In this document: one piece after another, positions 35,763 to 52,800 of the stretch
How the letters are laid out: each line of letters begins with the position of its first letter
How positions within the stretch are numbered: the first letter of the stretch is position 1
Virus record (IMG/VR): IMGVR_UViG_3300007735_000754
Location: 1 to 53,586 of that record
Strand: one strand, 5' to 3'
DNA length: 53,586 nt
Origin: a virus
Lineage: Duplodnaviria; Caudoviricetes
Notes under the pieces: model-generated
Database searches by the model: none
The model's input: only the letters and a program-made list of their open reading frames with translations
What the model was told of the DNA's origin: nothing
Program-made: the position numbers and the translations under genes

Positions 35763-36158
35763 TTATAGTAGTGCGTAGATTGTGCAGTCTGATACGGGGG
35801 TATCGCCGTATGAAGCCGATACATTTGTTATTATATATGGATGGAATGACCATGGATTCGCTACCACGTTTCCCTGACTGATGCTGTTATCCTCTAAAAA
35901 TCCCATTCCCGTATAACCTGAATTGCTGGTAAGGTTGTTTGAAGGATCATTTAGGTCCCAAGTTCTTAAAAATATAGAGGATGTTACTCCTGTAGCATCT
36001 AATACAGTTACCGTCACATCTGCAGGAACTCCAATTGCATCAGATCCTGGTTGGGATATAAATCCCTTCATATTAGGACAATTTATGGTGGCCGAAGTGG
36101 TGCTCACACCAAATGTATATTTTTGGACACGTCTGTAATATGTTTCTTCTTCGTTCAT
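35763..36158 (-). CDS. Small beta-rich late protein
   Basis: CTAAATA on the minus strand at 36173-36167. Confidence 0.6.
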   Translation of the reverse strand: MNEEETYYRRVQKYTFGVSTTSATINCPNMKGFISQPGSDAIGVPADVTVTVLDATGVTSSIFLRTWDLNDPSNNLTSNSGYTGMGFLEDNSISQGNVVANPWSFHPYIITNVSASYGDTPVSDCTIYALL

Positions 36159-36193
36159 TTCATGATTATTTAGGTATTCTAAATAATATTACC

Positions 36194-36763
36194 ATGGACC
36201 CATTTACTATTCAATACAGACGTCAAATTGACGAGTTAAACGAAGAAATCGCAGAACTCGTAGAAGCCCTAGAAATTTATGATGAAATTTTGGAATACAT
36301 TGATCCTGTATCCGAAAGCATGCTAATTGCAGAAGCCAAGGATAAGAAGTGGATTCAAAAGGCCATTAAGAAGCCCGGTGCCCTGCACAAGGCACTCAAA
36401 GTCAAGAAGGGCGAGAAGATTCCTGAGGGTAAGCTTGAGAAAGCAGCCCACAAGGGAGGCAAGTTAGGCCGAAGAGCCAGACTTGCTAAAACTTTGCGTG
36501 ATTTATCAAAGAAAAAGGTAAACGAAGAAGCAGAAGGCCCCGTACTTGGCGTTGTTTATAACGCAGACCAAGTACAAGATTTGGTCGATCAACATCCACC
36601 TTCAGAGTTTATACCATGGCCGGGAACTTTTACCAAAGACGGTGAACCTTATATCATAAATCGTGGGATCAAAAATCCAAAAGGACCGGGAAGAGTGCCA
36701 TCAGTTCTTGATAAAATGGTGGAAAAGATCCAAGGCACAAGAACTATAAAGAATAGCCGATAA
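36194..36763 (+). CDS. Late protein with 31-aa heptad leader and KWIQKAIKKPGALH module
   Basis: ATG 8 nt after CTAAATA. Basic module follows LIAE. Confidence 0.7.
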   Translation: MDPFTIQYRRQIDELNEEIAELVEALEIYDEILEYIDPVSESMLIAEAKDKKWIQKAIKKPGALHKALKVKKGEKIPEGKLEKAAHKGGKLGRRARLAKTLRDLSKKKVNEEAEGPVLGVVYNADQVQDLVDQHPPSEFIPWPGTFTKDGEPYIINRGIKNPKGPGRVPSVLDKMVEKIQGTRTIKNSR

Positions 36764-36784
36764 AGATAAAAAAGAAGATTAAAA

Positions 36785-36812
36785 ACTCAAGGCCCCTTAC
36801 GGGGCCTTGAGT
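36785..36812. terminator. Hairpin terminator between convergent genes
   Basis: ACTCAAGGCCCC-TTAC-GGGGCCTTGAGT perfect 12-bp stem. GTAA loop and U-run on the minus strand. Confidence 0.85.
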
Positions 36813-36813
36813 G

Positions 36814-37014
36814 TTACTTGATGTTGTTGATTGCTCGGGTGATTGCAAAAGCAATTTTTGTCAGATCTTCTTTCGGTCCACTTATCTGGACCGAATTTCT
36901 ATCTTCCCCCTCAATTAGAAGATTGTAGAATCCGTCTTCCCCAATGGTGGAGACAGAGACAATGAATTGCTCATGGAGCGTTTGAACGGAGCTGCAAGTG
37001 TTAATAGTATTCAT
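36814..37014 (-). CDS. Hypothetical protein
   Basis: AAGGTGA RBS. Ends at the terminator. Confidence 0.65.
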   Translation of the reverse strand: MNTINTCSSVQTLHEQFIVSVSTIGEDGFYNLLIEGEDRNSVQISGPKEDLTKIAFAITRAINNIK

Positions 37015-37027
37015 AGTTCACCTTAAA

Positions 37028-37099
37028 TGCGGGTTGGGAGAATCGAACTCCCATGACAGGTTTGGAAAACCTGAGTAATGGCCGTTATACGAAACCCGC
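37028..37099 (-). tRNA. trnG: tRNA-Gly (TCC)
   Basis: GCGGGTT/AACCCGC-A acceptor, CAGGT-TTTCCAA-ACCTG anticodon arm, GGGAG-TTCGATT-CTCCC T arm. Confidence 0.92.
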
Positions 37100-37177
37100 C
37101 AGTATCATTTCATTCGCAAAGAGTCAACGAACATGGCTAAACTAAATTTTAAAGAAATCCAATATGCCTTGAGTTTG

Positions 37178-37423
37178 TTAAGTAGCTTTTTCATCGCTGT
37201 ATTCCTTCCACGCCTTTGAATCCCAAAATTTATTTAATTCAGTATTTTTAAACTTTGGGTCATTGTGCCATATGCAGTGAGTATTATATTTACGCTTTGC
37301 AAGAATGGCAACATCCCATACTTTGCAATTAGGAATTTTGTTCAAAGATACGGTAAGGCCCTTTGATTCTACCAATTCTTTGAAGTCTAGGACTTCCTGT
37401 GGAATTTTGGCTTTTCTTCCCAT
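37178..37423 (-). CDS. Hypothetical early protein
   Basis: ATG 7 nt after TTGACT-N16-TATAAT (37458-37431). Confidence 0.65.
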   Translation of the reverse strand: MGRKAKIPQEVLDFKELVESKGLTVSLNKIPNCKVWDVAILAKRKYNTHCIWHNDPKFKNTELNKFWDSKAWKEYSDEKAT

Positions 37424-37487
37424 ATGCCATATTATATCACGGAAATGGCCTAAGTCAAGCATCTAAATAATATTACTGAGGAGCGAT

Positions 37488-39947
37488 ATGGATACCATTA
37501 CAAAATATTATAAAAATTTGTTTGAAAAATTAGAAAACCAAAAAAATGGTTTATTGAATAAATTTACCAATTTATTTGAATCAAATTTACGCCCACATGA
37601 TTACTTATATGCAGAGGCAAAAAAGAGGGGCTATGAAAATATAACTGACATTCCTAATGAGGAATTTAATGAGATCCGGAAGAGCCCAGAGTATCAGAAG
37701 TTAAGGGCCTTAGAAGACGCAGATGCTTTTATGGGACAGAACTATGGACTTGGAGAATACCATAGGAATCGCTTCGATAGCCCTCAACGTGAATATGGTA
37801 AATATGAGCAATCTTATGTAGATGCTGGACCAAAGGATACGCAAGATACCAGTGACCAAGAAGATCAAACTTCACCAGACTTTGTTGGTCCTCGTAATGT
37901 AAGCCAAGAAGATCAAACTTCACCAGACTTTGTTGGTCCTCGTAATGTAAGCCAAGAAGATCAAACTTCACCAGACTTTGTTGGTCCTCGTAATGTAAGC
38001 CAAGAAGATCAAATGTCACCAGACTTTGTTGGTCCTCCCAGTAATTTGGCAAATCCTCCAGCACAACCACAACCCTCTGTTCAAGATCAAATAAATCAAC
38101 AATTTGATCAGGCAGCTCAGGGTGAAAAAGACAGCTATGAAGCTGCTCGTAGAAAATACTATAACCGCAGAAACCAAGAAGAAAAAGATAAGGCAGAAGA
38201 AAATTTAGCTCGTATTGCTGCACTTGACATGAGCAAGATGTCTGCTTCCGGTAGAGCTCAGGTTGCCGTAAACAAACTCAAAGCCGAAAGAGCGCTAAAG
38301 AGAGATAGATTCGACAAAGAAGCAATTGATCGAATGGCGGCAAGCGACAGAGCAGAAAGGTTCATGACCCCGGAACAAAAGGCTGCAAGAGAAGCCAAAA
38401 ACAAACAAGCAGTACGTGATATAGAAACTCGCGGCCATAAAAATCTTGGTCATACCCAAAATGAAAAAGGAGAATGGGTAGATGCAAAAGGAAATCCCGC
38501 ATCTCTTGTTGGTCCTATTCGTGATAAATTTGGACCCGACGTAGTAATAGGAGGTACAAATATGACTTACGGTGAGTTTGAAAGACAAACCGGAAGAAAG
38601 TATAATGCTTCTAACAGCGAAGACAGAAATTTAATAATAAAGTTGGCTGGCACGGGAGGTGGAAGATTTTCAAGCGAAGCAGCCAGACAGGCTGCATTGA
38701 GTGCAGACGCCACAAATCAAGCGTATAGACAACAAAATGATGACATGGCAAGACGACAAGGCGAACTTGATCGTAAGGCTGACGCATCACAAAGAGAATT
38801 GGATCGTTTTAGAAATGATCCACAATATCGCGAACAACTCCGCAAAGCCGAGATGGAGAAAGTAAGACCGGGAGTCGAAGCGGAACAACGCGCAAGAGAT
38901 GAAAAGAGTGCAAGAATTAAAGCCCAAGGTGATGCCAATTTTGCTCAAGGTGTACAAAACCAAATGCAGCAACAGTTTAATCAAGCAGGCATTCAAGCAA
39001 GAAATAGAGAAGCAGGACCGGGTAAGGTTGGAGTTCCAAGTCTTTTAGCAAAACCCGGACAAGAACCAAAGGCTCCTAATTTAATTAGCAGACCCGAGGG
39101 AGCAGCACCAGAAGCTCCTACATTAATACAAGCACCCCCACCCGAAACTCCTGCTGCTCCAGTTTATACAGGACCGGGGAGCAAAGATTATGGAAAACCT
39201 CCCGCCGGAATTGCAAGACCTGAGGATACAACTCCAGATCTCTTAAGAAGAAACAGCACTGGAGGAATACCAGTAGGAACACAGATAATTAACAAATCAG
39301 AGTCCATGGCAGCAAAACCCGGACCAACCGCTGCTCCCGCAACTGCAGCTAGTCAGAAAGTTACTACATCTGCTTCTCCTGTTACTCCACCACCCCCAGC
39401 ATCTACTGGTGGTCAGGTTGCACAAAAAGTCGCACAGATGGCAGCACCAGCTACGTCTAGTGGTGGCATGAATCAACCAATGGATCTTTCTCAAATTCCA
39501 GATGAAGAAGAAAAACCAACTCCAGCAGGAGCTGAAAGTTCTACCTCAGGAACACAATTCCGAGGTGTCCCGCCTGACCAAACTGATGCAGCCAAACAAA
39601 ATGCTGCATCCAGAACAACAGGATCTCCTCAGGCCGCTTCACAGCCAACTATGAGTCCTGCAACTGCACCAAAGCCAGCTGCTGCAACAACCAGCACTCC
39701 AGTTGCTGCTGCAACTCCTCCCGCTAAACCAGTTGCAATTGGAAGCCAAGTCACCGCAGCAGCAACAAAAATGGCTGCTCCTCCACTCATCTCCAACGCA
39801 CCAGAAGAGGAAGATGAACAACAAAAGGGACCGCTTCCAGCAGGACAGAGCGCACTAAACGTTCCAATCCCACAGAAGAAAAGAGGATCCAATATTCCGG
39901 TAGGAAGCCCGGTAAGATCTGGAATGGCAGGAAATAGAGGAGTATGA
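37488..39947 (+). CDS. Large Q/P/A-rich late protein with 31-aa heptad leader
   Basis: CTAAATA plus GAGGAG RBS, tandem repeats and disordered composition. Confidence 0.7.
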   Translation: MDTITKYYKNLFEKLENQKNGLLNKFTNLFESNLRPHDYLYAEAKKRGYENITDIPNEEFNEIRKSPEYQKLRALEDADAFMGQNYGLGEYHRNRFDSPQREYGKYEQSYVDAGPKDTQDTSDQEDQTSPDFVGPRNVSQEDQTSPDFVGPRNVSQEDQTSPDFVGPRNVSQEDQMSPDFVGPPSNLANPPAQPQPSVQDQINQQFDQAAQGEKDSYEAARRKYYNRRNQEEKDKAEENLARIAALDMSKMSASGRAQVAVNKLKAERALKRDRFDKEAIDRMAASDRAERFMTPEQKAAREAKNKQAVRDIETRGHKNLGHTQNEKGEWVDAKGNPASLVGPIRDKFGPDVVIGGTNMTYGEFERQTGRKYNASNSEDRNLIIKLAGTGGGRFSSEAARQAALSADATNQAYRQQNDDMARRQGELDRKADASQRELDRFRNDPQYREQLRKAEMEKVRPGVEAEQRARDEKSARIKAQGDANFAQGVQNQMQQQFNQAGIQARNREAGPGKVGVPSLLAKPGQEPKAPNLISRPEGAAPEAPTLIQAPPPETPAAPVYTGPGSKDYGKPPAGIARPEDTTPDLLRRNSTGGIPVGTQIINKSESMAAKPGPTAAPATAASQKVTTSASPVTPPPPASTGGQVAQKVAQMAAPATSSGGMNQPMDLSQIPDEEEKPTPAGAESSTSGTQFRGVPPDQTDAAKQNAASRTTGSPQAASQPTMSPATAPKPAAATTSTPVAAATPPAKPVAIGSQVTAAATKMAAPPLISNAPEEEDEQQKGPLPAGQSALNVPIPQKKRGSNIPVGSPVRSGMAGNRGV
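37857..38037 (+). repeat. 48-bp coding tandem repeat (QEDQTSPDFVGPRNVS) x3.8
   Basis: Units at 37857, 37905 and 37953 are identical; 38001 is partial. Confidence 0.95.
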
Positions 39948-40477
39948 AGAAACTAAGTCCGCTTGCAAAATATTTGGTGGAGTATGCACAAGGCAATACT
40001 CCACGGCCACCCGGCAAAGAGGGTATGACTACAGTAGACTCTGGTATTTTTAGCTTTGGCGATCAATCTATATTTGCAAACGTTGTTGTCAAAAATCCGA
40101 CAGGTGATGGGTTTAAACCAGTAAAACCAACATTTGGACTTGGTTTTGACATGGCGCCAACATTAGCTGCAAGTGTAATGGACGTAGTACGTGCTCACGG
40201 AGATGACAAAGACAAGACAGATCTAGGACTATTAGGGGGAGAAGAGGGCCCAGAGTGGGATACTGACGATCCATCCAACGAATATGAAAAATTTGCTTCT
40301 TGGCAACAACTTAACCGTGCTGTTGGAAATTATGTGACCAACAGAGCAAATATTGCCATGAACCCCTTTAAACTGGGAAAAGTTCCCAAAAATCCAGTTG
40401 GGCGATATGACGGGCTAGATACTACAAAAATGGGATTAATTTCAGACAAACGTGGCCGAAAAACTAAGGTAAAATAA
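39944..40477 (+). CDS. Hypothetical late protein (KYLVE N-terminus)
   Basis: ATGA overlap and GAGGAG RBS. Confidence 0.65.
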   Translation: MKKLSPLAKYLVEYAQGNTPRPPGKEGMTTVDSGIFSFGDQSIFANVVVKNPTGDGFKPVKPTFGLGFDMAPTLAASVMDVVRAHGDDKDKTDLGLLGGEEGPEWDTDDPSNEYEKFASWQQLNRAVGNYVTNRANIAMNPFKLGKVPKNPVGRYDGLDTTKMGLISDKRGRKTKVK

Positions 40478-40516
40478 ATCTAAATATTAACACAGGTATA
40501 CTTTCAAAGGAAAATA

Positions 40517-41251
40517 ATGCATTACTTAACACAATACTACAAAAATCGTTGCAATCAACTTCAAGAGCAAATCAATGCTCTTAACGGCAAACTTTATATG
40601 CTTGCTGAAGCTGCAGTTGCTTCCAGCTCAACCGAAACCGCCGACCAATCTGGCGTTGGTGCTACCAAGCCATTCAGCGGAGCCCAACTTGGCCAGCTGC
40701 TCGGTTCCGGTAACATGGATGCCGTACACAATTACATGGCTCAGTATTATGCCAACAACCCATCTGCTCTAAGAGCAATTGCTGCTATGAACCAAGGTCA
40801 GGCTTCTGGTGGTGCAGATTCTGGCGCAGGAGTCTTTGATGGTGCAAATCTTGGACGCATTCTTGGTGCCAATGATCCCTCAGGTGCTCGTCGTTATGTC
40901 GGACAATTTGGCGGTGGCAGCGATGAAGGTGAGCAAACCGCTCCTGGTATGAGAAGCATGCTGCGCGCTGCTACCAATAAGGCTGCAGGAGTTCGCGGTG
41001 GTTCCATCGGTGGTGGTGAGATGGCTGGCGGATACGGCGGTGGAGCTTCACCTTACGGCGAAGCTGGTGGCGCTGCTGATTCTGGCGCTTTCGGTGGTGG
41101 TAGCAACGGTGGTGGTGGTGGTGGCTTCAGTGGTGAAGTTCTCGGCCAACTGCTCGGTAAGGGTGACATGGATGCAGTCGCTAACTACCTTCAGCAGTTC
41201 AAGGGATACCAAATGGGAGCATTTGGTCCAAAGAACAGACGTAGAAGCTAA
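40517..41251 (+). CDS. Gly-rich late protein with 31-aa heptad leader and three F.G..LG..LG repeats
   Basis: CTAAATA and AAGGA upstream. Repeats at 40673, 40835 and 41126. Confidence 0.7.
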   Translation: MHYLTQYYKNRCNQLQEQINALNGKLYMLAEAAVASSSTETADQSGVGATKPFSGAQLGQLLGSGNMDAVHNYMAQYYANNPSALRAIAAMNQGQASGGADSGAGVFDGANLGRILGANDPSGARRYVGQFGGGSDEGEQTAPGMRSMLRAATNKAAGVRGGSIGGGEMAGGYGGGASPYGEAGGAADSGAFGGGSNGGGGGGFSGEVLGQLLGKGDMDAVANYLQQFKGYQMGAFGPKNRRRS

Positions 41252-41437
41252 TTAGACATTAAGTCTTTTAGAAGTAGTTCCGAAGAACTCATCGAATATT
41301 TCGGTGAGTTCTTCTCTTTTCTTTACAGTCTGATTGTATTCCTTTTGGGATTGTTTTCCGTCAGTCTCCAATCGCCCCAGTCTGTACATAATTTGACCAA
41401 ATTCGTATATAAGTTCTTCTAGCTTTTTATCAGACAT
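41252..41437 (-). CDS. Hypothetical early protein
   Basis: ATG 6 nt after TTGCTT-N17-TATAAT. Confidence 0.65.
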   Translation of the reverse strand: MSDKKLEELIYEFGQIMYRLGRLETDGKQSQKEYNQTVKKREELTEIFDEFFGTTSKRLNV

Positions 41438-41488
41438 GGCATCATTATACTGCAGTTGAAAACCAAAAGCAAGCATATAAATAATAGT

Positions 41489-43918
41489 ATGCCGGACCAT
41501 GTAAATAAGAAATTTTTAGATAGCTTTTTTGGCAAGAATATTCCAATAGAAGTCAATAGTCCTGAATATTTCGCTAAACAAAAATATTTAAAAGAAGAAG
41601 AGCAAAAGAGAAAAGAACTTGAGAGAAAGCTGGCAAAGGTTCAGTACATTTCTGAATTCAAAAGAAACAGACCATCAAGATATTTGGAGCCCAAAACGTC
41701 TGAAGTTTTGAAAGAGAAACTATCTTTATATTTTTCTCGCGTTCAAAAGCCTTTGTTTGAACAAATGTTCAACAGCGATAGCAACCCTTGGGTTATGCAA
41801 AATACTCCAGTTGGTATCTTTTACATGAATAAAGATACTGGTCAGTGGATGAATGGTTTTGGTGTCGTTGCGAATAGCCTAGAAGAACTTCTCCACGCAT
41901 CGGGAGAAGACACTCATTCGTTTGGAAACTCCACTCCACAGATACAACTTGATGGTTATCTTCCAGAGTATCCACCACTATCTGCTGCAAGTAGTTCATT
42001 AGATTATGAAGTATTTGCGACTGACTGGAATATACAAAATTTAAGAACATCGTATGGATTTGGAACTCCTGCTTACACTTTACATTCACTTGTTCCAAGT
42101 GTTTCAATTCTAGCAAATGGGTATAATGGTTCTAGAACCCCATCTAACTCAACGGGATCTGATTTTAACCTAAATTATTTAAAAACGTATTTACAAGATA
42201 TACCAGAAAGTAGAAGAGTTGTAAATCTTGAAATGTTCTGGCCAGACATACCCGCATATGATGCCTATCGTAGAGATTTTTATGAAAACACGGCAGATGC
42301 TACTACTTATTTGGGATCTACATTTTTAACACCTTGGTGTGATGTAGAGGCAGCAGATGTAAAATCTTCATTAACTGCTGTTTTAAATCTTTGTCAGAAT
42401 GAAAATTTAGTAATTCCTTATTTTACCGATAACAGAGGATTGGAAACTGCTGGTAACGTATACAGCATTCAAGGAGCTAACAGTTATTGGAACGGAAATG
42501 CAGCCTTTGATGCAAGCGGCAATCCATTGACTCCAATTGCTGCTCCTGGTGGTAATTACGGAGTATACGGTACATGGTATCCAGATGCAAGATATTATGC
42601 GGCTTGGATCAATGATTCTCGGTTTAACAATTATATTATGTCAACTTCTGGTAAGAGTGTTGCCACCAGCATGGTTGATTATTATAATACACTCAGCGGA
42701 AATACATTACCCGTAACAGCAGAGCAGCTTTTTAGCCGAGCAGCAGGTATAACCCTAGCGGGCGATTTTACGGGCTATGGATATTACTATGAGAAACAAT
42801 TTAGCTATTATGGACCGGGAGCTCCTTTAACAAACATACAAAGAATAGATGAAACATACAGAGCTTCAGCTTGGATTGCAACATTTGATGAACTTACAAA
42901 TGGCCACTATGCTGCAAAAAATATAATTGAAGCAAAAAATTCTGTAAGTTTGTATGCCAATAGTTTGTATTCATCATACGAAATATACCCCACAGGAACC
43001 ACTGAATGTGAATTTTATCGTGATTCAAATGATCAAAAGTTTTTAAAACCAATTTTTCCAAATTTAAGTGGAGGAAACGGATGGTACGGGTGGCATGGAA
43101 ATATAATTTATCCTCACGGAGGATATCCTAATGTTTCTCCAAATTATATTTCGGGATATGTATTAAATCCACAAACAGACGAAGAAAAATATAATTGGGC
43201 AGGACATAATAATCCTTCATATGTACCAACAGCGGGAAGCACGTTGGTAAGATATGCATCCACTCCATTGGTTGATGTAGAAGAATGGAAGTCACAAGTT
43301 GTTTATAAACAATTTGTAAATGATATAAAGTTACTTCGTCATCAATATCGAGCTAAACCGGATTTTCACCTATATCATACTCCATTTTTAGCAACCAATT
43401 TCAGTGGTTCTGGGCCTGGAGGAGCGCCTTTATGTTTGTATAATGAGTATTATGACGATAGCAGATATTTTAGAGAATTTGTGTATCACATATTGCTTCA
43501 CGGCGTTGCATATGTAATGAACTATTGGGCAAAGAAAGAAACAATGCATGAAATTTTGGATGCATGGAGAACCATAAGTTATAATTCAAAATCCATTCCG
43601 TGTTCCAATTCTACCGGAAATACAAATCTTCCAGTTGACCGTTTAATCTTAAGCAATGCAATAACAAATCAAGTTATGAGTGGCGGCAGAATGACAAAAA
43701 CAGGAAAATACCTGTGGAGAATTACTGCTCCACCAACTGCAAAACGAGCAAACAACACAATCGTTTTCCAAAATCTTGAGTCTGGATTTGAGCCAGATCT
43801 TCCATTTGAAGTAACTATTGATTGCTCTAATCCCGCAAACGGTTACGGATTCTGGATAAAACGTAACGTTTCTACCCCACCAAACTATGGAGTTGTTCCA
43901 GAGCCAGAACCAGCCTAA
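41489..43918 (+). CDS. Large Tyr/Asn-rich late protein, probably virion-associated
   Basis: ATG 5 nt after exact TATAAATA (41476-41483). Function not recognised. Confidence 0.6.
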   Translation: MPDHVNKKFLDSFFGKNIPIEVNSPEYFAKQKYLKEEEQKRKELERKLAKVQYISEFKRNRPSRYLEPKTSEVLKEKLSLYFSRVQKPLFEQMFNSDSNPWVMQNTPVGIFYMNKDTGQWMNGFGVVANSLEELLHASGEDTHSFGNSTPQIQLDGYLPEYPPLSAASSSLDYEVFATDWNIQNLRTSYGFGTPAYTLHSLVPSVSILANGYNGSRTPSNSTGSDFNLNYLKTYLQDIPESRRVVNLEMFWPDIPAYDAYRRDFYENTADATTYLGSTFLTPWCDVEAADVKSSLTAVLNLCQNENLVIPYFTDNRGLETAGNVYSIQGANSYWNGNAAFDASGNPLTPIAAPGGNYGVYGTWYPDARYYAAWINDSRFNNYIMSTSGKSVATSMVDYYNTLSGNTLPVTAEQLFSRAAGITLAGDFTGYGYYYEKQFSYYGPGAPLTNIQRIDETYRASAWIATFDELTNGHYAAKNIIEAKNSVSLYANSLYSSYEIYPTGTTECEFYRDSNDQKFLKPIFPNLSGGNGWYGWHGNIIYPHGGYPNVSPNYISGYVLNPQTDEEKYNWAGHNNPSYVPTAGSTLVRYASTPLVDVEEWKSQVVYKQFVNDIKLLRHQYRAKPDFHLYHTPFLATNFSGSGPGGAPLCLYNEYYDDSRYFREFVYHILLHGVAYVMNYWAKKETMHEILDAWRTISYNSKSIPCSNSTGNTNLPVDRLILSNAITNQVMSGGRMTKTGKYLWRITAPPTAKRANNTIVFQNLESGFEPDLPFEVTIDCSNPANGYGFWIKRNVSTPPNYGVVPEPEPA

Positions 43919-43929
43919 ATAATATAGCC

Positions 43930-44175
43930 ATGTTAAAATTTTCCCAATTCATCAAAGAAGCAAAAGTACAAGGTGCAATTACTCAGATGGGGCTTGCGGT
44001 TACCCCAGACGAAGAGCAAGAGTATCGCAATATAATTGCCGCCAATCAGGATAACCCAAATACGGAAGAAGTAGAGCAGACTGGGGATGATCCGGCTTGG
44101 CAGAACACTAATGCAGCGGTATCAAATTACGTCAGCAAACAAGTTCAGTCAATGCGTCAACAAGCAGGACTTTGA
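43930..44175 (+). CDS. Putative internal head protein (CTS MLKFSQFIKE)
   Basis: CTS-like decapeptide and CTAAATA upstream. Confidence 0.65.
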   Translation: MLKFSQFIKEAKVQGAITQMGLAVTPDEEQEYRNIIAANQDNPNTEEVEQTGDDPAWQNTNAAVSNYVSKQVQSMRQQAGL

Positions 44176-44176
44176 A

Positions 44177-44797
44177 ATGGCAAAGAAAAAAGAAATAAAG
44201 ATCCCAGAAGACAAGCAGAAAAGATTTGAGGAATTGATGGACAAGTATATGGATACACATAACATGTCCGGTGATGCTGCTCGTCAACGTGCACTGGATG
44301 ATCTTGGTCTTTCATCTAAGAAGCTTCATGAGGGATTTAGAAAGGCAATGCGAAGAGTCAAGGCGAATGATATTGACTACGCAGAGAAAGAAGCCAAGCG
44401 TCAGGCATTTCGCAAAGGAATAAAAGATTCCAAACTTGATACTCATAAAGCAGTCAAGAGAGAGTTGGGATTAGAAATTTTGTCAGACGAAGATAAGGCT
44501 CGTATGGAAGCAGGATCAAGAGCCAACAAACAAAACATTCAAAAGATTGCTCTTGGCTTGTATCCAAACATTCCTGGCGATAGATTTGAGGGACAGAAGA
44601 AAGCATCAGAGAAAGATCGCCGCGAACTAAAGAATGCTGCAAAGGCTGTTACAAACCGGACAACCGCATCCGAGATTGCAAACGAAATCTACAACGAACA
44701 ACCTGTAATCCGTGATCGTAAAGCAAAGACCAAGGAAATGTACGACAAGTTAACTCATCTTCGCTTCATGAAGAAATTGCAAAAGAAGGGCTTCTGA
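44177..44797 (+). CDS. Basic helical late protein
   Basis: ATG 1 nt after the previous stop. K/R-rich. Confidence 0.6.
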   Translation: MAKKKEIKIPEDKQKRFEELMDKYMDTHNMSGDAARQRALDDLGLSSKKLHEGFRKAMRRVKANDIDYAEKEAKRQAFRKGIKDSKLDTHKAVKRELGLEILSDEDKARMEAGSRANKQNIQKIALGLYPNIPGDRFEGQKKASEKDRRELKNAAKAVTNRTTASEIANEIYNEQPVIRDRKAKTKEMYDKLTHLRFMKKLQKKGF

Positions 44798-44799
44798 CT

Positions 44800-45054
44800 A
44801 TGGGATCAATTACAGAAAACTGGAAACGCAAATTTGAAGAACTTACTCTCGTCAAGGAAAACTTGGAGAGAATGGTCTACAATCTTCTTGAGATAAAAAG
44901 CACTGCTCAAATCGATAGAAGCCAAACCGAAGCTAAGAAGAAAGCAGCAGAAATTCAAAGAAACGCCAGACAAGATCCCAAAAACGCAAACAATACAAGA
45001 TTGATGCGTACTGATGATCAACGTGAACGAAGGGGATCAGAAAGAAGAGTGTAA
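44800..45054 (+). CDS. Small late protein with 31-aa heptad leader
   Basis: MGSITENWKRKFEELTLVKENLERMVYNLLE. Confidence 0.65.
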   Translation: MGSITENWKRKFEELTLVKENLERMVYNLLEIKSTAQIDRSQTEAKKKAAEIQRNARQDPKNANNTRLMRTDDQRERRGSERRV

Positions 45055-45259
45055 ATTGGCCAAGAAAAGAATCCGAAACAAAAATCGGAAACCAAATGAG
45101 GACGCAAGTTACTACTTTGTGGCCCACGTAGATTCAGCAGGAGAGGTAACCCCTCTCCTTTTAACTGATGTGGAGTTCGAAGTGGCAAAGAAGAGAGCAA
45201 ACAAAAATCAAGAGGATGTACCTCTTGATTTTATTGTCTTTTCCCAAGCCCACAAGTAA
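45014..45259 (+). CDS. Hypothetical protein
   Basis: LLLT..E...A.KRA.KN.EDVP pattern. Start uncertain. Confidence 0.55.
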   Translation: MINVNEGDQKEECKLAKKRIRNKNRKPNEDASYYFVAHVDSAGEVTPLLLTDVEFEVAKKRANKNQEDVPLDFIVFSQAHK

Positions 45260-45472
45260 TTATTCGTCTTTGCCTTTTCCCCAGCCGCTTGCGTGGTTGT
45301 AGGCTATTAGCACAGATTCCTTTGTCTCCAGTGCACAATTTTTCTGCACACGAAGCACACGAATTTCTTCTGCCGCATCTCTGCAAACTTCAAATACTTC
45401 TCGGTTTGCATCGTGCCATTTGTCTGCCATGTTTCTCAGGCGTTCTTCAATGTCTTTCATTTGATTCATCAA
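45260..45472 (-). CDS. Hypothetical early protein (DI.ERLR...AAEEI..LR type)
   Basis: ATGA-coupled to the upstream gene. Confidence 0.65.
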   Translation of the reverse strand: MMNQMKDIEERLRNMADKWHDANREVFEVCRDAAEEIRVLRVQKNCALETKESVLIAYNHASGWGKGKDE

Positions 45473-45686: not shown

Positions 45687-45992
45687 ATGCTTAGCTTCAA
45701 AGAATTTTTAATCGAATCTTCCGCCGCATGGCAACGCAAAGAAGGCAAAGACCCCAAGGGTGGTCTGAACAAGAAAGGCGTTGAGTCTTACCGCAGAGAA
45801 CATCCCGGTTCTAAACTTTCCACTGCTGTAACAACCAAGCCATCTAAATTGAAGAAGGGCTCTAAGTCTGCAAAAAGAAGAAAATCCTTCTGCAGCCGCA
45901 TGAAGGGAATGAAGGCTAAACTTACTTCTGCCAAGACCGCAAGAGATCCTGATTCAAGAATCAATAAGTCCTTGCGTAAATGGAACTGTTAA
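45687..45992 (+). CDS. Basic protein (AAWQRKEGK..GGLN..RRKSFC.RM..W.C module) with CTS
   Basis: MLSFKEFLIE followed by a module common in T4-like phages. GATAAATA upstream. Confidence 0.75.
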   Translation: MLSFKEFLIESSAAWQRKEGKDPKGGLNKKGVESYRREHPGSKLSTAVTTKPSKLKKGSKSAKRRKSFCSRMKGMKAKLTSAKTARDPDSRINKSLRKWNC

Positions 45993-49474: not shown

Positions 49475-49666
49475 ATGAAAACTTTCATTCATTTTATCAA
49501 CGAAGAACACGACAAGGTATGGAAGGCCAAGGTAAAGGTCACAAAGGACGGAAAGACCACAGAAGTCGCTGTGGAGTCATCTGAGAACATCCGCAAGGCC
49601 GTACACGCAAAGGTAGCCCAACTGAGCAAGGATGGCTACAAACTTGATGGTGTAGATTACGATTGA
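49475..49666 (+). CDS. Putative internal head protein (CTS MKTFIHFINE)
   Basis: CTS-like start, AATAAATA and GAGGA upstream. Confidence 0.7.
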   Translation: MKTFIHFINEEHDKVWKAKVKVTKDGKTTEVAVESSENIRKAVHAKVAQLSKDGYKLDGVDYD

Positions 49667-49688
49667 TAAATAACAAGGAATAAAATTT

Positions 49689-50045
49689 ATGCAAAATTTC
49701 AGAGAACTAAAAGGTCTAATCGAAGCAGCAGAAGCAGTAATGGGATATGCCCTACCCGGCGAACCTCCAATTGGCCCACCGCCCCCACCAGACACAGGCC
49801 CAAAGCAACCTCCTATTGAAATTCCTCCGATTAAGAATCCAAAGTTTAAGTCTTCATCGAGATCCAATCAAAAATCTTATCCATCGGGAGATTTGGCTTC
49901 TTCCAAACAAAAGAATGAGCCCGAAGTAGATCTTCCTGATTGGGTAGAATACTTCAGACCCGGCAAAAACACAGGTCCACGGGATGGCTACAACCCATAC
50001 CCAAAGATCGACCTTCCGGGAATATTCGGTCACGGAATTAAGTAA
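49689..50045 (+). CDS. Pro-rich putative internal head protein (MQNFRELKGLIE)
   Basis: CTS-like start and GATAAATA upstream. Confidence 0.6.
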   Translation: MQNFRELKGLIEAAEAVMGYALPGEPPIGPPPPPDTGPKQPPIEIPPIKNPKFKSSSRSNQKSYPSGDLASSKQKNEPEVDLPDWVEYFRPGKNTGPRDGYNPYPKIDLPGIFGHGIK

Positions 50046-50048
50046 AAA

Positions 50049-50375
50049 TTAATTCGCTGGGCCAATTCGTTTCCAATCGACAAGGTTTTCGCCAAATTCC
50101 ATTTTCATTCTCTTCTTGAATGTTTTTGCCTCCATCTTGGTGGCAGTTATGGTCATTTCGACAAAATTTCCATAGTCAGAATATTGCACAGAAGAATACC
50201 AATGGGTACTCACAATAGGACTGACTTCAGCCATTGGTCCTTGAATTGTGCATTTGTACTGAAACATCTTGCTGTCATTGAAAAGAGTAAGACAAGGATT
50301 GATGCCATTCTTTGTGGCATGGGTATATGGAAGTTTACTATTGAAAAAAAGTGTATAGTTGTTAATATTTGACAT
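50049..50375 (-). CDS. Hypothetical protein
   Basis: Fills the gap between + strand genes. ATG start. Confidence 0.5.
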   Translation of the reverse strand: MSNINNYTLFFNSKLPYTHATKNGINPCLTLFNDSKMFQYKCTIQGPMAEVSPIVSTHWYSSVQYSDYGNFVEMTITATKMEAKTFKKRMKMEFGENLVDWKRIGPAN

Positions 50376-50398
50376 TTTGTGTTAGAATAAATATTATT

Positions 50399-50731
50399 AT
50401 GAAAAGTTTCAAAGATTATCTGTTAGAGGGAATTAAGAAAGCCATCAGAAGCAAGAACCCCGAGGCATACCGCAAGGAATTGCTGCGACAGGGTGTAAGA
50501 GGGGCAGACCCAAGAACAGATGCGCCATACAACGGGAAAGATCGTGGGTCGCTTGGCGACAACATGATTAAATTGGCGATTGAGGCAGAAAACGAAGGAA
50601 TGGGGCTGGGGCTGTACAATAAGGGAGATTATAAGGCAACACTAGATGCTTTGTCAAGTGTAGCAGGAAAAGCACAGACTCAGAAGTTAAACGCATTGGC
50701 CCGTAACAAGAGAAACGCAAAGAAGAAATAA
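50399..50731 (+). CDS. Putative internal head protein (CTS MKSFKDYLLE)
   Basis: ATG 5 nt after AATAAATA. Confidence 0.7.
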   Translation: MKSFKDYLLEGIKKAIRSKNPEAYRKELLRQGVRGADPRTDAPYNGKDRGSLGDNMIKLAIEAENEGMGLGLYNKGDYKATLDALSSVAGKAQTQKLNALARNKRNAKKK

Positions 50732-50732
50732 T

Positions 50733-51452
50733 ATGAAAAGATTCAAGGAATATCTATTTGAAAATGTTTTAGATATGCCAGCAGTTCGTAAACTGTTGCA
50801 TGGCACCAAAGTTCTTGGACCCGATGGGACTCCTGCCAGAGTATTTCATGGAACTAGCGCAGCAAAAGAATTTAAAAAATTTGCATTAACTAAAGATTTT
50901 GGATATCACTTTGCAGAAGATCCAAAATTAGCTGCAGCAGCACTCCGAAGTAGAGTAGGCGGTCGGACACAAGCGGGGGGTGGAAGGACCATTCCCACTT
51001 ACTTGGCGATCAAAAACCCGGCTCCGTTTGATGAAATCACCAAAGAAGACATTACCGATTCTCCGGGAGGTTGGAAATTTGCCGATGTGGTCAAAAAGAT
51101 GGCAGACAGAGGAATCTTTTCCATCACACCCAACCCACATGAATTTGATGAACCAACAGAACCCGGACAAATCGTAGGTCCCCCAAAGAAGAGAAAAATT
51201 GGAAGAATTGACAAAGATCAAAGAGAATATGTGGGACAAGTTGCTGATGAAATAAGACAAGCAACTAAAGGAAAAAAATTATCTGTAATGAAAAGAAATC
51301 AACTCATGTTGAAAAGATTGGTAGGTGACTTAAGGGGATTGGGTTATGACGGTGGTGTTTATGATAATAAATTTGAAGGCAAAGGTAAGACATGGGTAGC
51401 ATTTGATCCCAAACAGATAATCAATTCCATAACCGGAAGGCAGATGGGATAA
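50733..51452 (+). CDS. ADP-ribosyltransferase-fold protein of the polyvalent-protein (ART-PolyVal) type, with CTS
   Basis: VFHGT, GYHFAEDP..A, YL.IKNP, GYDG..Y.N and WVAFDP.QI. N-terminal MKRFKEYLFE. Confidence 0.7.
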   Translation: MKRFKEYLFENVLDMPAVRKLLHGTKVLGPDGTPARVFHGTSAAKEFKKFALTKDFGYHFAEDPKLAAAALRSRVGGRTQAGGGRTIPTYLAIKNPAPFDEITKEDITDSPGGWKFADVVKKMADRGIFSITPNPHEFDEPTEPGQIVGPPKKRKIGRIDKDQREYVGQVADEIRQATKGKKLSVMKRNQLMLKRLVGDLRGLGYDGGVYDNKFEGKGKTWVAFDPKQIINSITGRQMG

Positions 51453-51457
51453 GAACC

Positions 51458-52201
51458 ATGAAAAGATTCAAGGAATTTCTCAGCGAAGCAAGAAGATCCC
51501 TTGAGGGAACGCATGCCCTGAACAAAGTATACGACGAACGCCCATTCTTTGGAGAAGTTTCCGCCAAGATGCCCAAACTTTCAGAAACGGAGAGAAGACT
51601 TCTTGATGCGTACACACAGAAGGCATTACCCCTCAACAGAGAACTGAGACAGGCAGCAGTATGGGAGACATCAAGAAACAGAGGAAATATTCCATCCCCG
51701 GAGCAAGTTCTAGCAAGAATGAGAGACAGCAAAGAACTTACAAGGGACTTGGATGATCTTATCCAGCAGAAGGGAATGGTGCTTGCAAGACCATTCACCA
51801 CATACCGCGGAGTAACCAACCCGGAAAATCCCGAATTCTCCGATAATCTCATACGCGGAATTCAACATGGATTCCTTTCAACGGGAGTCTCACCGAGGGC
51901 ATCTGCATCGCTTCCAACCAGCGAAGTTCTTTCAATACACGACTGGGAGCGCAGAAGGCCAAAATTGTTAAAAATAAATGTACCCACAGGAACTAGGTTC
52001 TTGCCCAATCCCCAGACACGAAGTTCAAGGTTCAGAGGAGAGAATGAAATTATATTTCCAAGGGGAATGCATCTTGATACCGAAATGTCACCAGAGTCTC
52101 TATTGAAGTTCTATGGAGTAGGTGGAAAATCAGGAATGGAGAATTTTCACTATTCCATGCCCGTACATAGATCAAGAATATCCCATAGAGGCCACTCATG
52201 A
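51458..52201 (+). CDS. R-S-E clade (VIP2/Alt-like) ADP-ribosyltransferase with CTS
   Basis: YT....LN..LR, TYRGV, GFLSTG, L.I.VP.G and ENEIIFPRG. N-terminal MKRFKEFLSE. Confidence 0.8.
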   Translation: MKRFKEFLSEARRSLEGTHALNKVYDERPFFGEVSAKMPKLSETERRLLDAYTQKALPLNRELRQAAVWETSRNRGNIPSPEQVLARMRDSKELTRDLDDLIQQKGMVLARPFTTYRGVTNPENPEFSDNLIRGIQHGFLSTGVSPRASASLPTSEVLSIHDWERRRPKLLKINVPTGTRFLPNPQTRSSRFRGENEIIFPRGMHLDTEMSPESLLKFYGVGGKSGMENFHYSMPVHRSRISHRGHS

Positions 52202-52800
52202 AAAGTTTCAAACAATTTCTTTTAGAGGGACAGGCGGAAGTCGATGCGGCGATCAAAGCAACTGAGGACGCGCACAACAGAGAGCGTAAAATTTGGTATG
52301 CCCGGGGAAGATTAGAAACCATGATCGCAGATGCTACCGACAAAAATAATGTGTCTGACAGTGAATATTCTAGATTGAATCGAAAGGCACACCAAAAGGT
52401 ACAGCAAAGAGTCAATCCCATGTTAAAGAAAACTTTTACAAATTTATCCCCTGAAGATAGAATGCAATTTCTTCTATCCCCACGTTCATCAAATTCCGAG
52501 TGGGCAGAATTTCATGACAAATACTCTCCCGGTGGTGCAGCAGGACAAACCATGTATGATAAAATAAAACAGGATCGTCAAGTTGAAATGTTCCCATTAA
52601 AAGATTTAAGGGATGCGGAGGACATGCTTTCAGTTATTCGAAGTAAAAAAATAGATCGCAGTTTCCATCCGAAAGATCGCAACTTAACAAAGTCACCCAT
52701 AACGCAAGATAGAGGGGATAATAGAATCAAGGGAGGAACTTTCCATGAGAGAAAGAAAATGAGAACAGAACGGAATAAGAGAAAGTCCTCAAAGAAATAA
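52198..52800 (+). CDS. Putative internal head protein (CTS MKSFKQFLLE)
   Basis: ATGA-coupled to the ART gene. Confidence 0.7.
   Translation: MKSFKQFLLEGQAEVDAAIKATEDAHNRERKIWYARGRLETMIADATDKNNVSDSEYSRLNRKAHQKVQQRVNPMLKKTFTNLSPEDRMQFLLSPRSSNSEWAEFHDKYSPGGAAGQTMYDKIKQDRQVEMFPLKDLRDAEDMLSVIRSKKIDRSFHPKDRNLTKSPITQDRGDNRIKGGTFHERKKMRTERNKRKSSKK

What the first reader, a model, noticed from the sequence alone, without database searches (positions are those of the whole stretch)
36194..45054. A second, gap-free 31-residue coiled-coil leader ending at E31 on four unrelated late proteins
MDPFTIQYRRQIDELNEEIAELVEALEIYDE (36194), MDTITKYYKNLFEKLENQKNGLLNKFTNLFE (37488), MHYLTQYYKNRCNQLQEQINALNGKLYMLAE (40517) and MGSITENWKRKFEELTLVKENLERMVYNLLE (44800) align without gaps: hydrophobic4, T5, Y/W8, K/R9, L15, L22, hydrophobic26, L/Y29, E31. 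The 8-15-22-29 spacing is a heptad, and L29-x-E31 (3 of 4) matches the gp21 L/I-x-E cleavage consensus. Downstream bodies differ completely. I know no described signal like this. Inference: an alternative prohead-targeting propeptide that zips onto scaffold coiled coils.
Basis: partly seen in the sequence, partly recalled or inferred. Interest (0 to 1): 0.85.

Follow-up and report, generated by a model that had tools for sequence, protein, structure and literature searches.

The report
Second head-loading leader in T4-like phages
Four unrelated late proteins of this uncultured T4-like phage start with the same helical leader of about 30 residues, which heads hundreds of unrelated proteins in related phages and swaps places with the known T4-type head-loading tag, so it is probably a second, undescribed signal for packing proteins into the phage head.

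Summary
All four ORFs start with the quoted 31 residues. They are the four best of all Met starts in the window against an independent profile.

The leader belongs to a large family with no match in print or in 50,697 cultured-phage records.
- 815 representative proteins of 1.84 billion match at E<=1e-3. 144 of the 150 listed match from residue 1.
- 232 bodies fall into 59 BLAST clusters.
- Five large relative records carry 2-8 copies each.

Evidence on function is indirect.
- Six bodies carry this leader in one contig and a T4-type decapeptide tag in another. In the three clearest pairs homology resumes right after an L-x-E.
- 3 of 4 large relative contigs encode a gp21-type prohead protease.
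- 111 of 135 leader genes have a late-promoter-like TAAATA upstream.

E31 is not a universal end. In the wider family the last L-x-E lies at 23, 27/28, 31 or 34.

No proteomic or binding evidence exists. This scan's index holds no look-alike stretch on other DNA.

Best reading (about 0.6): a cleavable prohead-targeting propeptide, a new variant of the T4 capsid targeting sequence.

The parts
36194..36286 (+). Leader 1 (31 codons) of the 189-aa protein 36194-36763. Diverged, acidic variant: net charge -8 over the first 31 residues, +13 over the body.
   Evidence: Anchored profile score 13.4. Not found by unanchored HMMs. Orthologues start at the same Met. The body is basic and matches phrog_15706 weakly.
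37488..37580 (+). Leader 2 of the 819-aa low-complexity protein 37488-39947. Predicted cleavage motif L29-F30-E31.
   Evidence: E=4.5e-5 with the independent HMM. Anchored score 34.5. No Pfam or PHROG match.
40517..40609 (+). Leader 3, the canonical form, of the 244-aa Gly-rich repeat protein 40517-41251. Predicted cleavage motif L29-A30-E31, followed by Ala.
   Evidence: E=3.6e-13 with the independent HMM. E31 is invariant in 12 of 12 orthologues, and indels begin just after it. The AF2 model has a helix at residues 3-35 but low confidence.
44800..44892 (+). Leader 4 of the 84-aa basic protein 44800-45054. Diverged variant with L29-L30-E31. It starts 2 nt after the stop of the preceding ORF, in one gene string with the decapeptide-tag gene 43930.
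   Evidence: Leave-one-out E=0.13. Anchored score 0.8 against -5.4 for the next window Met start.
36179..36186 (+). Late-promoter-like CTAAATA[AT] motif 15 nt before the ATG at 36194. It lies inside the upstream extension of the frame, which supports 36194 as the true start.
37463..37470 (+). Late-promoter-like CTAAATA[AT] motif 25 nt before the ATG at 37488.
40480..40487 (+). Late-promoter-like CTAAATA[AT] motif 37 nt before the ATG at 40517.
43915..43922 (+). The same motif 15 nt before the decapeptide-tag gene 43930. It probably also serves 44800 further down the gene string.
43930..44175 (+). Neighbouring gene with a classic T4-type decapeptide tag (pattern M-x-x-F/Y-x-x-F/Y/W-I/L/V/M-x-E).
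45687..45992 (+). Neighbouring gene with a decapeptide tag and a DUF6321 domain.
49475..52800 (+). Further decapeptide-tag genes at 49475, 50399, 50733 (ART-PolyVal), 51458 (ADPrib_exo_Tox) and 52198. They are context showing that this phage has a T4-like set of tagged proteins.

Best explanation
The leader is an N-terminal amphipathic helix of about 23-31 residues. The canonical form begins M-[N/D/H]-Y-L-T-N-Y-Y-K-N-L-[C/S]-E-Q-L-Q-E.

I propose that it works as a capsid (prohead-core) targeting propeptide in a clade of uncultured T4-like phages.
- Late in infection the tagged proteins join the scaffolding core through the leader before the shell closes.
- The gp21-type prohead protease then cuts after a Glu of an L/I-x-E motif at the end of the leader: E31 in three or four of the window's proteins, E23, E28 or E29 elsewhere.
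- The varied, mostly low-complexity and often basic bodies stay in the head with the DNA and may be ejected into the host.

Shown here: the leader's N-terminal position, its family size, the diversity of its bodies, selection at the peptide level, a late-promoter-like context, interchange with the decapeptide tag, and a gp21-type protease in relatives.

Inferred: binding to the core, cleavage, packaging and ejection.
For: 1. N-terminal only and specific.
- 144 of 150 listed library hits start at residue 1; the other six start at residues 6-27.
- 815 representatives match at E<=1e-3 and 135 at E<=1e-10, out of 1.84 billion.
- 147 of 153 hits in 73 sources start at a Met at model position 1.

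2. One leader on many bodies.
- 232 bodies form 59 BLAST clusters, 36 of them singletons.
- Five large records carry 2, 5, 7, 5 and 8 matches.

3. Leader swaps. Homologous bodies carry the T4-type decapeptide in one contig and this leader in another.
- L031:12547 vs L002:10634: 73% over 120 aa, E=1e-59.
- L009:5858 vs L033:2015: 54% over 74 aa, E=1e-23.
- L053:8067 vs P0041: junction alignment; the BLAST hit of that frame was to P0115, 51% over 70 aa, E=1e-12.
- L019:10674 vs L049:2621: 58% over 250 aa, E=4e-85.
- L071:10887 vs L058:5663: 48% over 73 aa, E=3e-15.
- L020:10716 vs L059:367: 32% over 87 aa, E=2e-6 (weak).
- In the first three pairs body homology starts directly after L-x-E in both partners (leader E29, E23, E28; decapeptide E10).

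4. The decapeptide is credibly a T4-type capsid targeting sequence (CTS).
- It fits the T4 CTS quoted in PMC8442874 (passage).
- In the window it heads two ADP-ribosyltransferases. T4 Alt is a packaged ADP-ribosyltransferase whose termini are propeptides (PMC9026906 passages).

5. Protease. PF03420 (Peptidase_S77) is present in 3 of 4 large leader-bearing records searched. One of them has a T4 head module of portal, protease, scaffold and major head protein. T4 gp21 cuts after L/I-x-E (PMC9026906 passage).

6. Boundary.
- Information content is high at positions 1-23 and at 26, and falls to background by about 30-33.
- 232 of 233 members have [LIVM]-x-E within residues 20-36, and the residue after the last one is Ala in 113 of 232.
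- Two proteins carry a tandem partial repeat of the leader that begins right after the L-E at 22-23.

7. Late context. TAAATA lies within 40 nt upstream of 111 of 135 leader genes, against 139 of 750 other ORFs of 100 aa or more. In the window CTAAATA[AT] precedes 36194, 37488 and 40517, and also the decapeptide gene 43930 and the collagen-repeat gene at 606.

8. Selection acts on the peptide.
- In 109 within-locus paralogue pairs, 610 of 1,556 identical residues use different codons.
- All six Leu codons occur at each of L4, L11, L15 and L22.

9. Positions 4, 7 and 8 are hydrophobic or aromatic (L4 in 199, Y7 in 209 and Y8 in 228 of 233). The T4 CTS has Tyr, Phe and Ile at 4, 7 and 8, and residues 4 and 7 matter most for targeting (PMC9026906 passage).
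Against: - No virion proteome, N-terminal mapping or cultured phage exists for any member. Packaging and cleavage are therefore unobserved.
- The window is a fragment (CheckV 32% complete) without head genes, so its own protease is not seen.
- One of the four large relatives searched showed no PF03420. It is 58% complete.
- L-x-E motifs follow almost automatically from a Leu/Glu-rich helix. Sites at E13 and E17 are as frequent as the proposed terminal ones.
- The residue after E31 is Ile in two of the window's four proteins (44800 and 36194), not a small residue.
- The loci were fetched with a pattern for leader residues 7-16. Conservation of those positions is therefore partly circular.
- Cargo differs from that of the decapeptide. 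About 26 of 58 decapeptide-tagged ORFs have Pfam domains such as lysozyme, methyltransferase and ADP-ribosyltransferase. Only about 4 of 60 leader representatives do. The two samples were drawn differently, but this could mean the two tags are not functionally identical.
- 36194 and 44800 are only weakly tied to the family.
Confidence: 0.6

Rival explanations
1. The helix is a retained oligomerisation or docking module. It would form a coiled coil that plugs interchangeable small proteins onto some virion structure (head surface, collar or fibres) or onto each other, and it is not removed.
For: - The hydrophobic seam at positions 4, 8, 11, 15, 19, 22, 26 and 29 fits a coiled coil.
- One body family gives EF-hand and dockerin hits.
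- The window also encodes collagen-repeat proteins.
- Earlier notes of this scan describe shared N-terminal plugs on adhesin-like phage proteins (e1-158929).
Against: - Six bodies exchange this leader for the T4-type decapeptide. In the three clearest pairs homology resumes exactly after L-x-E. In T4 the decapeptide targets the prohead core and is cleaved off (PMC9026906, PMC8442874 passages).
- Bodies are mostly low-complexity, Cys-free and net basic (153 of 233). That is unlike receptor-binding heads.
- In the window and in L002 the genes sit among decapeptide-tagged genes.
Confidence: 0.17
2. The leader-bearing proteins are themselves expendable core or scaffold components, analogous to T4 gp67, gp68 and gp22. 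They would co-assemble through the helix, be cut into pieces and leave the head, so they are not cargo.
For: - The leader holds several L-x-E motifs (E13 in 188, E17 in 173 and E23 in 130 of 233 with a hydrophobic residue two positions before).
- Bodies are low-complexity with few known domains.
- In T4 the core proteins are cleaved into multiple fragments that leave the head (PMC9026906 passage).
Against: - The bodies are far too variable for an essential scaffold role: 59 clusters, with 2-8 different genes in each record searched.
- Bodies are shared with decapeptide-tagged proteins.
- After position 34 [LIVMFY]-x-E motifs are rare, at 0-8 of 233 per position.
- No frame of the three head-gene regions searched resembles the leader.
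Confidence: 0.12
3. The conservation reflects a nucleic-acid or translation signal rather than a protein function, for example requirements of leaderless late mRNAs or a recombination hotspot for gene shuffling.
For: - TAAATA starts exactly 11 nt before the ATG in 83 of 135 leader genes. Many transcripts would then start at or near the ATG.
- The first ten codons are AT-rich.
Against: - 39% of identical residues use different codons, and codon choice varies at every leader position tabulated, 2-27.
- Nucleotide identity among the window's four leaders is only 39-51 of 93.
- Conservation runs over about 26 codons with helical periodicity.
Confidence: 0.03
4. The leader is a recognition sequence for a dedicated modifying enzyme, as in RiPP precursors.
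For: An earlier case in this scan was re-read in this way (e1-127136). Position 12 is Cys or Ser in 210 of 233 members.
Against: - No partner gene travels with the leader. The commonest neighbour families occur in at most 26 of 73 loci.
- The five of the eight sampled neighbour families that match Pfam are WYL_2-like, GMP reductase, DenV-like glycosylase, lysozyme and DUF7178. Three have no match.
Confidence: 0.03

Closest known systems
Capsid targeting sequence (CTS) of phage T4 internal proteins IPI, IPII, IPIII and Alt
   Same: - It is an N-terminal tag shared by otherwise unrelated proteins of a T4-type phage.
- It ends in L/I-x-E, the motif of the gp21 protease (PMC9026906 passages).
- Positions 4, 7 and 8 are hydrophobic or aromatic.
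- Here it is directly interchangeable with a decapeptide that fits the T4 CTS quoted in PMC8442874.
   Different: - It is 23-31 residues long, not about 10.
- It has a different and much more strongly conserved sequence.
- It has a helical heptad-like seam.
- It has several internal L-x-E motifs and a variable end point.
- It sits mostly on low-complexity bodies, whereas the decapeptide in the same contigs often heads enzymes.
- Targeting and cleavage are untested.
Long N-terminal propeptides of inner-head and ejection proteins of giant phages (phiKZ, 201phi2-1, SPN3US)
   Same: These are propeptides longer than the T4 CTS. They are removed by a gp21-related protease after Glu, sometimes with redundant cleavage sites, and are inferred to target proteins into the prohead (PMC5694885 and PMC9026906 passages).
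   Different: - Four SPN3US propeptides are longer than 100 residues (PMC5694885 passage).
- As far as the passages I read show, those propeptides are shared within paralogue families, not placed as one short module on dozens of unrelated bodies.
- I did not compare them with this leader by sequence.
Cargo-loading peptides of encapsulins and scaffold or delta domains of HK97-type capsids (recalled, not tested here)
   Same: A short address peptide or helical domain brings proteins inside an HK97-fold shell.
   Different: As I recall, encapsulin tags are usually C-terminal and are not cleaved, and delta domains belong to the capsid protein itself. I compared no sequences.

Membership tests
T4-type capsid targeting sequence (CTS) propeptide | Located at the extreme N-terminus of proteins that are otherwise unrelated | tested here: met
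   144 of 150 listed library hits start at residue 1. 232 bodies form 59 clusters.
T4-type capsid targeting sequence (CTS) propeptide | About 10 residues, similar to the T4 CTS as quoted in PMC8442874 | tested here: not met
   The leader is 23-31 residues long with a different consensus. Only the hydrophobic pattern at positions 4, 7 and 8 is shared.
T4-type capsid targeting sequence (CTS) propeptide | Ends in an L/I-x-E motif at the junction with the mature protein | tested here: met
   232 of 233 members have [LIVM]-x-E within residues 20-36. Swap junctions fall right after L-x-E at E23, E28 and E29. In the window 37488, 40517 and 44800 have L29-x-E31, and 36194 has Y29-D30-E31 and L22-V23-E24.
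T4-type capsid targeting sequence (CTS) propeptide | Cleaved off by the prohead protease | not testable with these tools
   Needs N-terminal proteomics or an in vitro protease assay.
T4-type capsid targeting sequence (CTS) propeptide | Sufficient to direct a protein into the prohead core | not testable with these tools
   Only indirect evidence: interchange with the decapeptide tag on homologous bodies.
T4-type capsid targeting sequence (CTS) propeptide | The phage encodes a gp21-type (Peptidase_S77) prohead protease and a T4-type head module | tested here: inconclusive
   Met in 3 of 4 large relative records (head module). The window is a 32%-complete fragment without head genes. Its polymerase, helicase and UvsX-like genes are T4-like.
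Scaffold or core protein segment (gp22, gp67, gp68-like) | Sequence similarity to the phage's own core proteins | tested here: not met
   The leader HMM against 524 frames of three head-gene regions gave a best E of 0.21, in short 45-49-aa frames.
RiPP-like leader recognised by a co-encoded modifying enzyme | A conserved partner enzyme encoded next to the tagged genes | tested here: not met
   The commonest neighbour family occurs in 26 of 73 loci. None of the eight sampled families matches a known peptide-modifying enzyme.

The most novel reading that the evidence does not exclude
These phages run at least two, perhaps three, parallel address systems for the inside of the head. The short decapeptide would load folded enzymes. 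The helical leader would load a different class of bulk, low-complexity, often basic proteins by co-polymerising with the core. A third leader type seen in passing would be a further class. Leader class would then set destination, copy number or timing inside the prohead, and cargo genes would move between classes by recombination at the L-x-E junction.
Probability: 0.18. Interest if true: 0.85.

Novelty: new variant of a known kind. Interest (0 to 1): 0.64.

Why it matters
The T4 capsid targeting sequence is the textbook example of a peptide address for the interior of a virus particle. It is also the basis of T4 protein-packaging technology.

A second, longer and far more conserved address would be significant for three reasons.
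- It is present on hundreds of unrelated protein families in uncultured T4-like phages.
- It is interchangeable with the classic tag, so head loading would be modular and more varied than the T4 model suggests.
- It would give a simple sequence rule for predicting which 'hypothetical' proteins of environmental phages are packaged and possibly injected.

The leader could also become a second tool for loading foreign proteins into capsids. The contrast in cargo, enzymes behind the decapeptide and low-complexity proteins behind the helix, poses a testable question about sorting inside the prohead.

Tried and rejected
- Complex prediction of the leader (alignment A4, 43 rows) with the gp22-like scaffold of the same relative (A5, 3 rows) gave 'no answer', score 0.00, and the controls were not run. 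It counts neither for nor against binding.
- Structure prediction of the 244-aa protein gave a low-confidence model (mean pLDDT 46.5). It has a helix at residues 3-35 followed by disorder. I use it only as a weak hint of helicity and ran no fold search on it.
- The look-up of sequencing runs listed no RNA holder, so there is no evidence on expression. I did not lay reads.
- Cultured phages: tblastn of one 31-aa leader (E<=1) found nothing. tblastn of a 154-aa leader protein (E<=10) found only seven weak matches (E 0.1-5), none covering the leader (query residues 13-148 at most).
- Megablast of 36000-45300 against the phage records found no match.
- PHROG and Pfam scans of the four window proteins gave nothing usable.
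- The idea that E31 is the universal end of the leader is rejected. E31 is invariant in my first six-sequence alignment. For L002:10634 that is partly coincidence, because the swap maps its junction to E29.
- The idea that the leader copies a segment of a core protein is rejected at the sequence level.
- The RiPP-type partner enzyme is rejected.
Virion proteome tables of T4-like cyanophages in such files could bear on whether related proteins are packaged.
- Claims of 'not in print' rest only.
Full report
**What the window is**

The 53,586-base window is a whole IMG/VR virus record that CheckV rates 32% complete. It encodes the following.
- A family-B DNA polymerase 41% identical to gp43 of Synechococcus myophages.
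- A DnaB/gp41-like helicase, a RecA/UvsX-like protein and a ribonucleotide reductase.
- Collagen-repeat proteins.

It is therefore a fragment of an uncultured T4-like phage. No head genes were recognised among its ORFs.

**The observation**

For 36194 the frame opens at 36113, but three things support the internal ATG.
- A late-promoter-like CTAAATA[AT] motif lies at 36179, inside the upstream extension.
- Most orthologues in the protein collection start at the same Met.
- The residues read upstream of the Met are those seen in front of other family members whose starts were called too early.

The four leaders align without gaps, with 7-13 of 31 identities.

Significance was tested in three ways.
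- Leave-one-out HMMs against all 953 stop-to-stop frames of the window recover 37488 (E=1.2e-5), 40517 (E=3.6e-5) and, weakly, 44800 (E=0.13). They do not recover 36194.
- An HMM of 171 leaders from other contigs, built after removing every orthologue of the window's four proteins, finds 40517 (E=3.6e-13) and 37488 (E=4.5e-5) only.
- A gap-free profile anchored at Met1 ranks the four as the top four of all Met starts in the window: 60.7, 34.5, 13.4 and 0.8, with the next at -5.4. Among 5,880 other Met starts in 73 sources, the only four above 13.4 look like diverged leaders themselves.

36194 and 44800 are distant variants.

**A large family**

- A first search with the 244-aa protein found one IMG/VR relative, L002. 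It has two adjacent genes with the same leader and unrelated bodies, next to a run of genes starting with a T4-type decapeptide.
- A profile search of longer proteins gave 273 hits at E<=10 among 2,440 candidates. All 120 listed have E<7e-7, lengths of 76-455 aa and no Pfam domain. The leader is at residue 1 in 115 of them and behind an over-called start in 5.
- A DNA pattern for ten leader residues found 71 stretches in IMG/VR, on contigs up to 137 kb.
- An HMM of 92 unique leaders gave 153 hits in these loci plus the window. 147 start at a Met at model position 1, only one is internal, and a single locus holds up to six copies. Some loci overlap on the same contig, so these counts include duplicates.
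- The word-free HMMER search of 1.84 billion representatives gave 815 proteins at E<=1e-3 and 135 at E<=1e-10. 144 of the 150 listed match from residue 1.
- Whole-record searches show 2, 5, 7, 5 and 8 matches in five large relatives.
- No cultured phage among 50,697 records has the leader. Literature searches for its core strings found only unrelated papers.
- This scan's own index holds no look-alike stretch in other windows.

**Anatomy of the leader**

These figures come from 233 unique leader proteins.
- Information content is high at positions 1-23 and at 26. It decays to background by about 30-33.
- Hydrophobic positions 4, 8, 11, 15, 19, 22, 26 and 29 form a continuous helical seam.
- Glu occupies position 13 in 209 members, 17 in 173, 23 in 161, 28 in 72 and 31 in 83.
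- The last [LIVM]-x-E within residues 20-36 lies at 23 (66 members), 27 (20), 28 (71), 31 (39) or 34 (20). One member has none.
- The residue after that Glu is Ala in 113 of 232 members.
- E31 is thus one of several end points, not a universal one.
- In the orthologue group of 40517, E31 is invariant in 12 of 12, and indels begin just after it.
- Two proteins carry a tandem partial duplication of the leader that begins right after the L-E at 22-23.

One caveat applies. The loci were retrieved with a pattern covering residues 7-16, so conservation of those positions is partly circular.

**Bodies**

- 232 bodies (residue 35 onward) form 59 BLAST clusters, 36 of them singletons. The window's four fall into four different clusters.
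- Of 60 cluster representatives, about 4 have a Pfam hit and at most 14 have a PHROG hit, mostly of unknown function.
- Bodies are rich in Ala, Gly, Pro, Arg and Lys, essentially Cys-free (0.0% of body residues), and net positive in 153 of 233.

**Peptide or nucleic-acid signal**

- In 109 within-locus paralogue pairs, residues 2-26 are 57% identical, yet 610 of 1,556 identical residues use different codons.
- All six Leu codons occur at each of L4, L11, L15 and L22.
- The window's leaders share only 39-51 of 93 nucleotides.

Selection therefore acts on the peptide.

**Context**

- TAAATA lies within 40 nt upstream of 111 of 135 leader genes. The figures are 19 of 47 for decapeptide-tagged ORFs and 139 of 750 for other ORFs of 100 aa or more.
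- In 83 of the 135 it starts exactly 11 nt before the ATG.
- In the window CTAAATA[AT] precedes 36194, 37488 and 40517. It also precedes the decapeptide gene 43930 and the collagen-repeat gene at 606.
- That TATAAATA-like elements are T4-type late promoters is my own knowledge, not a result of any call.
- 44800 follows 43930 and 44087 in one gene string.
- The window has seven decapeptide-tagged genes, including two ADP-ribosyltransferases.

**The key result: leader swaps**

I stripped the leaders and compared the bodies with all other frames of the loci. I then aligned the pairs; coordinates are. Six bodies occur with the T4-type decapeptide in one contig and with the helical leader in another.
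- L031:12547-12954 vs L002:10634-11098: 73% over 120 aa, E=1e-59.
- L009:5858-6346 vs L033:2015-2359: 54% over 74 aa, E=1e-23.
- L053:8067-8606 vs P0041: junction alignment. The BLAST hit of this frame was to P0115, 51% over 70 aa, E=1e-12.
- L019:10674-11648 vs L049:2621-3571: 58% over 250 aa, E=4e-85.
- L071:10887-11360 vs L058:5663-6379: 48% over 73 aa, E=3e-15.
- L020:10716-11261 vs L059:367-969: 32% over 87 aa, E=2e-6. This pair is weak.

In the first three pairs the shared body begins directly after E10 of the decapeptide, and after E29, E23 and E28 of the leader, each with Leu two residues before. So the two tags occupy the same modular slot, and the slot ends at an L-x-E.

**Why this points to head loading**

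- In T4 the roughly 10-residue CTS targets the otherwise diverse internal proteins to the scaffolding core. It is cut off by gp21 after L/I-x-E, and residues 4 and 7 matter most for targeting. I read passages of PMC9026906, PMC3012670, PMC8442874 and PMC5694885.
- The decapeptide in these contigs fits that sequence pattern. It heads Alt-like ADP-ribosyltransferases, lysozymes and methyltransferases.
- Three of four large leader-bearing records searched encode a Peptidase_S77 protease (a fifth locus, L067, was not held).
- One of these records has the T4 order of portal, 141-aa ORF, protease, 267-aa ORF, scaffold and major head protein. Its major head protein is 53-54% identical to those of cyanomyophages.
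- The leader keeps hydrophobic or aromatic residues at positions 4, 7 and 8. It may be an elongated CTS whose cleavage site has moved 13-21 residues downstream.

**What is missing**

- Nothing shows that these proteins are in particles or are cut.
- L-x-E motifs come almost for free in such a helix.
- The window itself lacks head genes.
- The leader resembles no frame of three head-gene regions.
- The single complex prediction gave no answer (see Tried and rejected).
- Cargo content differs. About 26 of 58 decapeptide-tagged ORFs have Pfam domains, against about 4 of 60 leader representatives. The two sets were sampled differently.
- So the two tags may not be fully equivalent. This is the basis of the bolder reading that they define different cargo classes.

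**Rivals**

- A retained docking or oligomerisation helix is the main alternative (0.17).
- Expendable core proteins are a second (0.12).
- An RNA- or DNA-level signal is disfavoured by the codon data (0.03).
- A RiPP-type recognition leader is disfavoured because no partner gene is conserved: the top neighbour family is in 26 of 73 loci (0.03).

**Verdict**

The leader is most likely a prohead-targeting propeptide (0.6). Its fixed end at E31 and its 'zipping' onto scaffold coiled coils are not supported as stated. It is a new variant of a known kind of signal, with no match in the literature searches I ran or in the cultured phage records I searched.

Noticed in passing
L071:11386-11952:+, L027:2460-3089:-, L045:3118-3792:-, L055:1925-3238:-, L028:10282-10773:+: A third N-terminal leader type of about 28-31 residues contains an N-L-Q or N-N-L-Q core and ends in I/V/L-N-E. 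It sits in front of bodies that carry the helical leader elsewhere: L036:9602, L004:9960, L053:8608 and P0095. L028:10282 begins like the decapeptide tag and then continues into this type.
   Followed up: partly
135 leader genes in loci L002-L073; window 36179, 37463, 40480, 43915: TAAATA starts exactly 11 nt before the ATG in 83 of 135 leader genes. Many of these late genes would therefore have leaderless or near-leaderless mRNAs. This agrees with another first-reader note on this genome.
   Followed up: partly
P0121 and P0122 (proteins): The leader is partly duplicated in tandem. The second copy starts directly after the L-E at positions 22-23 of the first.
   Followed up: no
Leader position 12 in 233 proteins: Position 12 is Cys in 121 and Ser in 89 of 233 members. 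The bodies contain essentially no Cys, 0.0% of residues. The meaning is unknown.
   Followed up: no
window 40517-41251 and orthologues (alignment A6): The body consists of two or three copies of a module of about 25 residues (F-S-G-A-x-L-G-Q-L-L-G ... A-V-x-x-Y-L-x-Q-F), separated by Gly-rich linkers, and it ends in an Arg run. Among the 60 body representatives, the EF-hand_6, EF-hand_1, EF-hand_5 and Dockerin_1 families each matched one member. The output does not say which member, or whether it is the same one.
   Followed up: no
window 22223-26029 and 37488-39947: The 1268-aa protein, which starts with a decapeptide-like tag, and the 819-aa leader protein share a stretch of 24 residues at 88% identity. 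This agrees with another first-reader note.
   Followed up: partly
58 decapeptide-tagged ORFs in the loci and the window, e.g. L003:3757-4383:+: The classic decapeptide tag heads phage lysozymes (8 of 58), methyltransferases (5), LysM proteins (3), DUF5872 (3), GP88 (2), DUF6321 (2) and ADP-ribosyltransferases (3). This is a candidate set of packaged enzymes.
   Followed up: partly
window 36100-41300: Near-identical DNA (half or more of the sampled words) is held by runs labelled reservoir, sediment, wastewater and plain 'metagenome', from four studies besides the possible source. The phage seems to be widespread in inland waters. I did not lay reads.
   Followed up: no
L003 (contig named as a giant-virus bin): One leader-bearing contig carries a giant-virus MAG label in its IMG/VR name, although it holds two leader genes and a decapeptide-tagged lysozyme. 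It is probably a mis-binned phage fragment.
   Followed up: no
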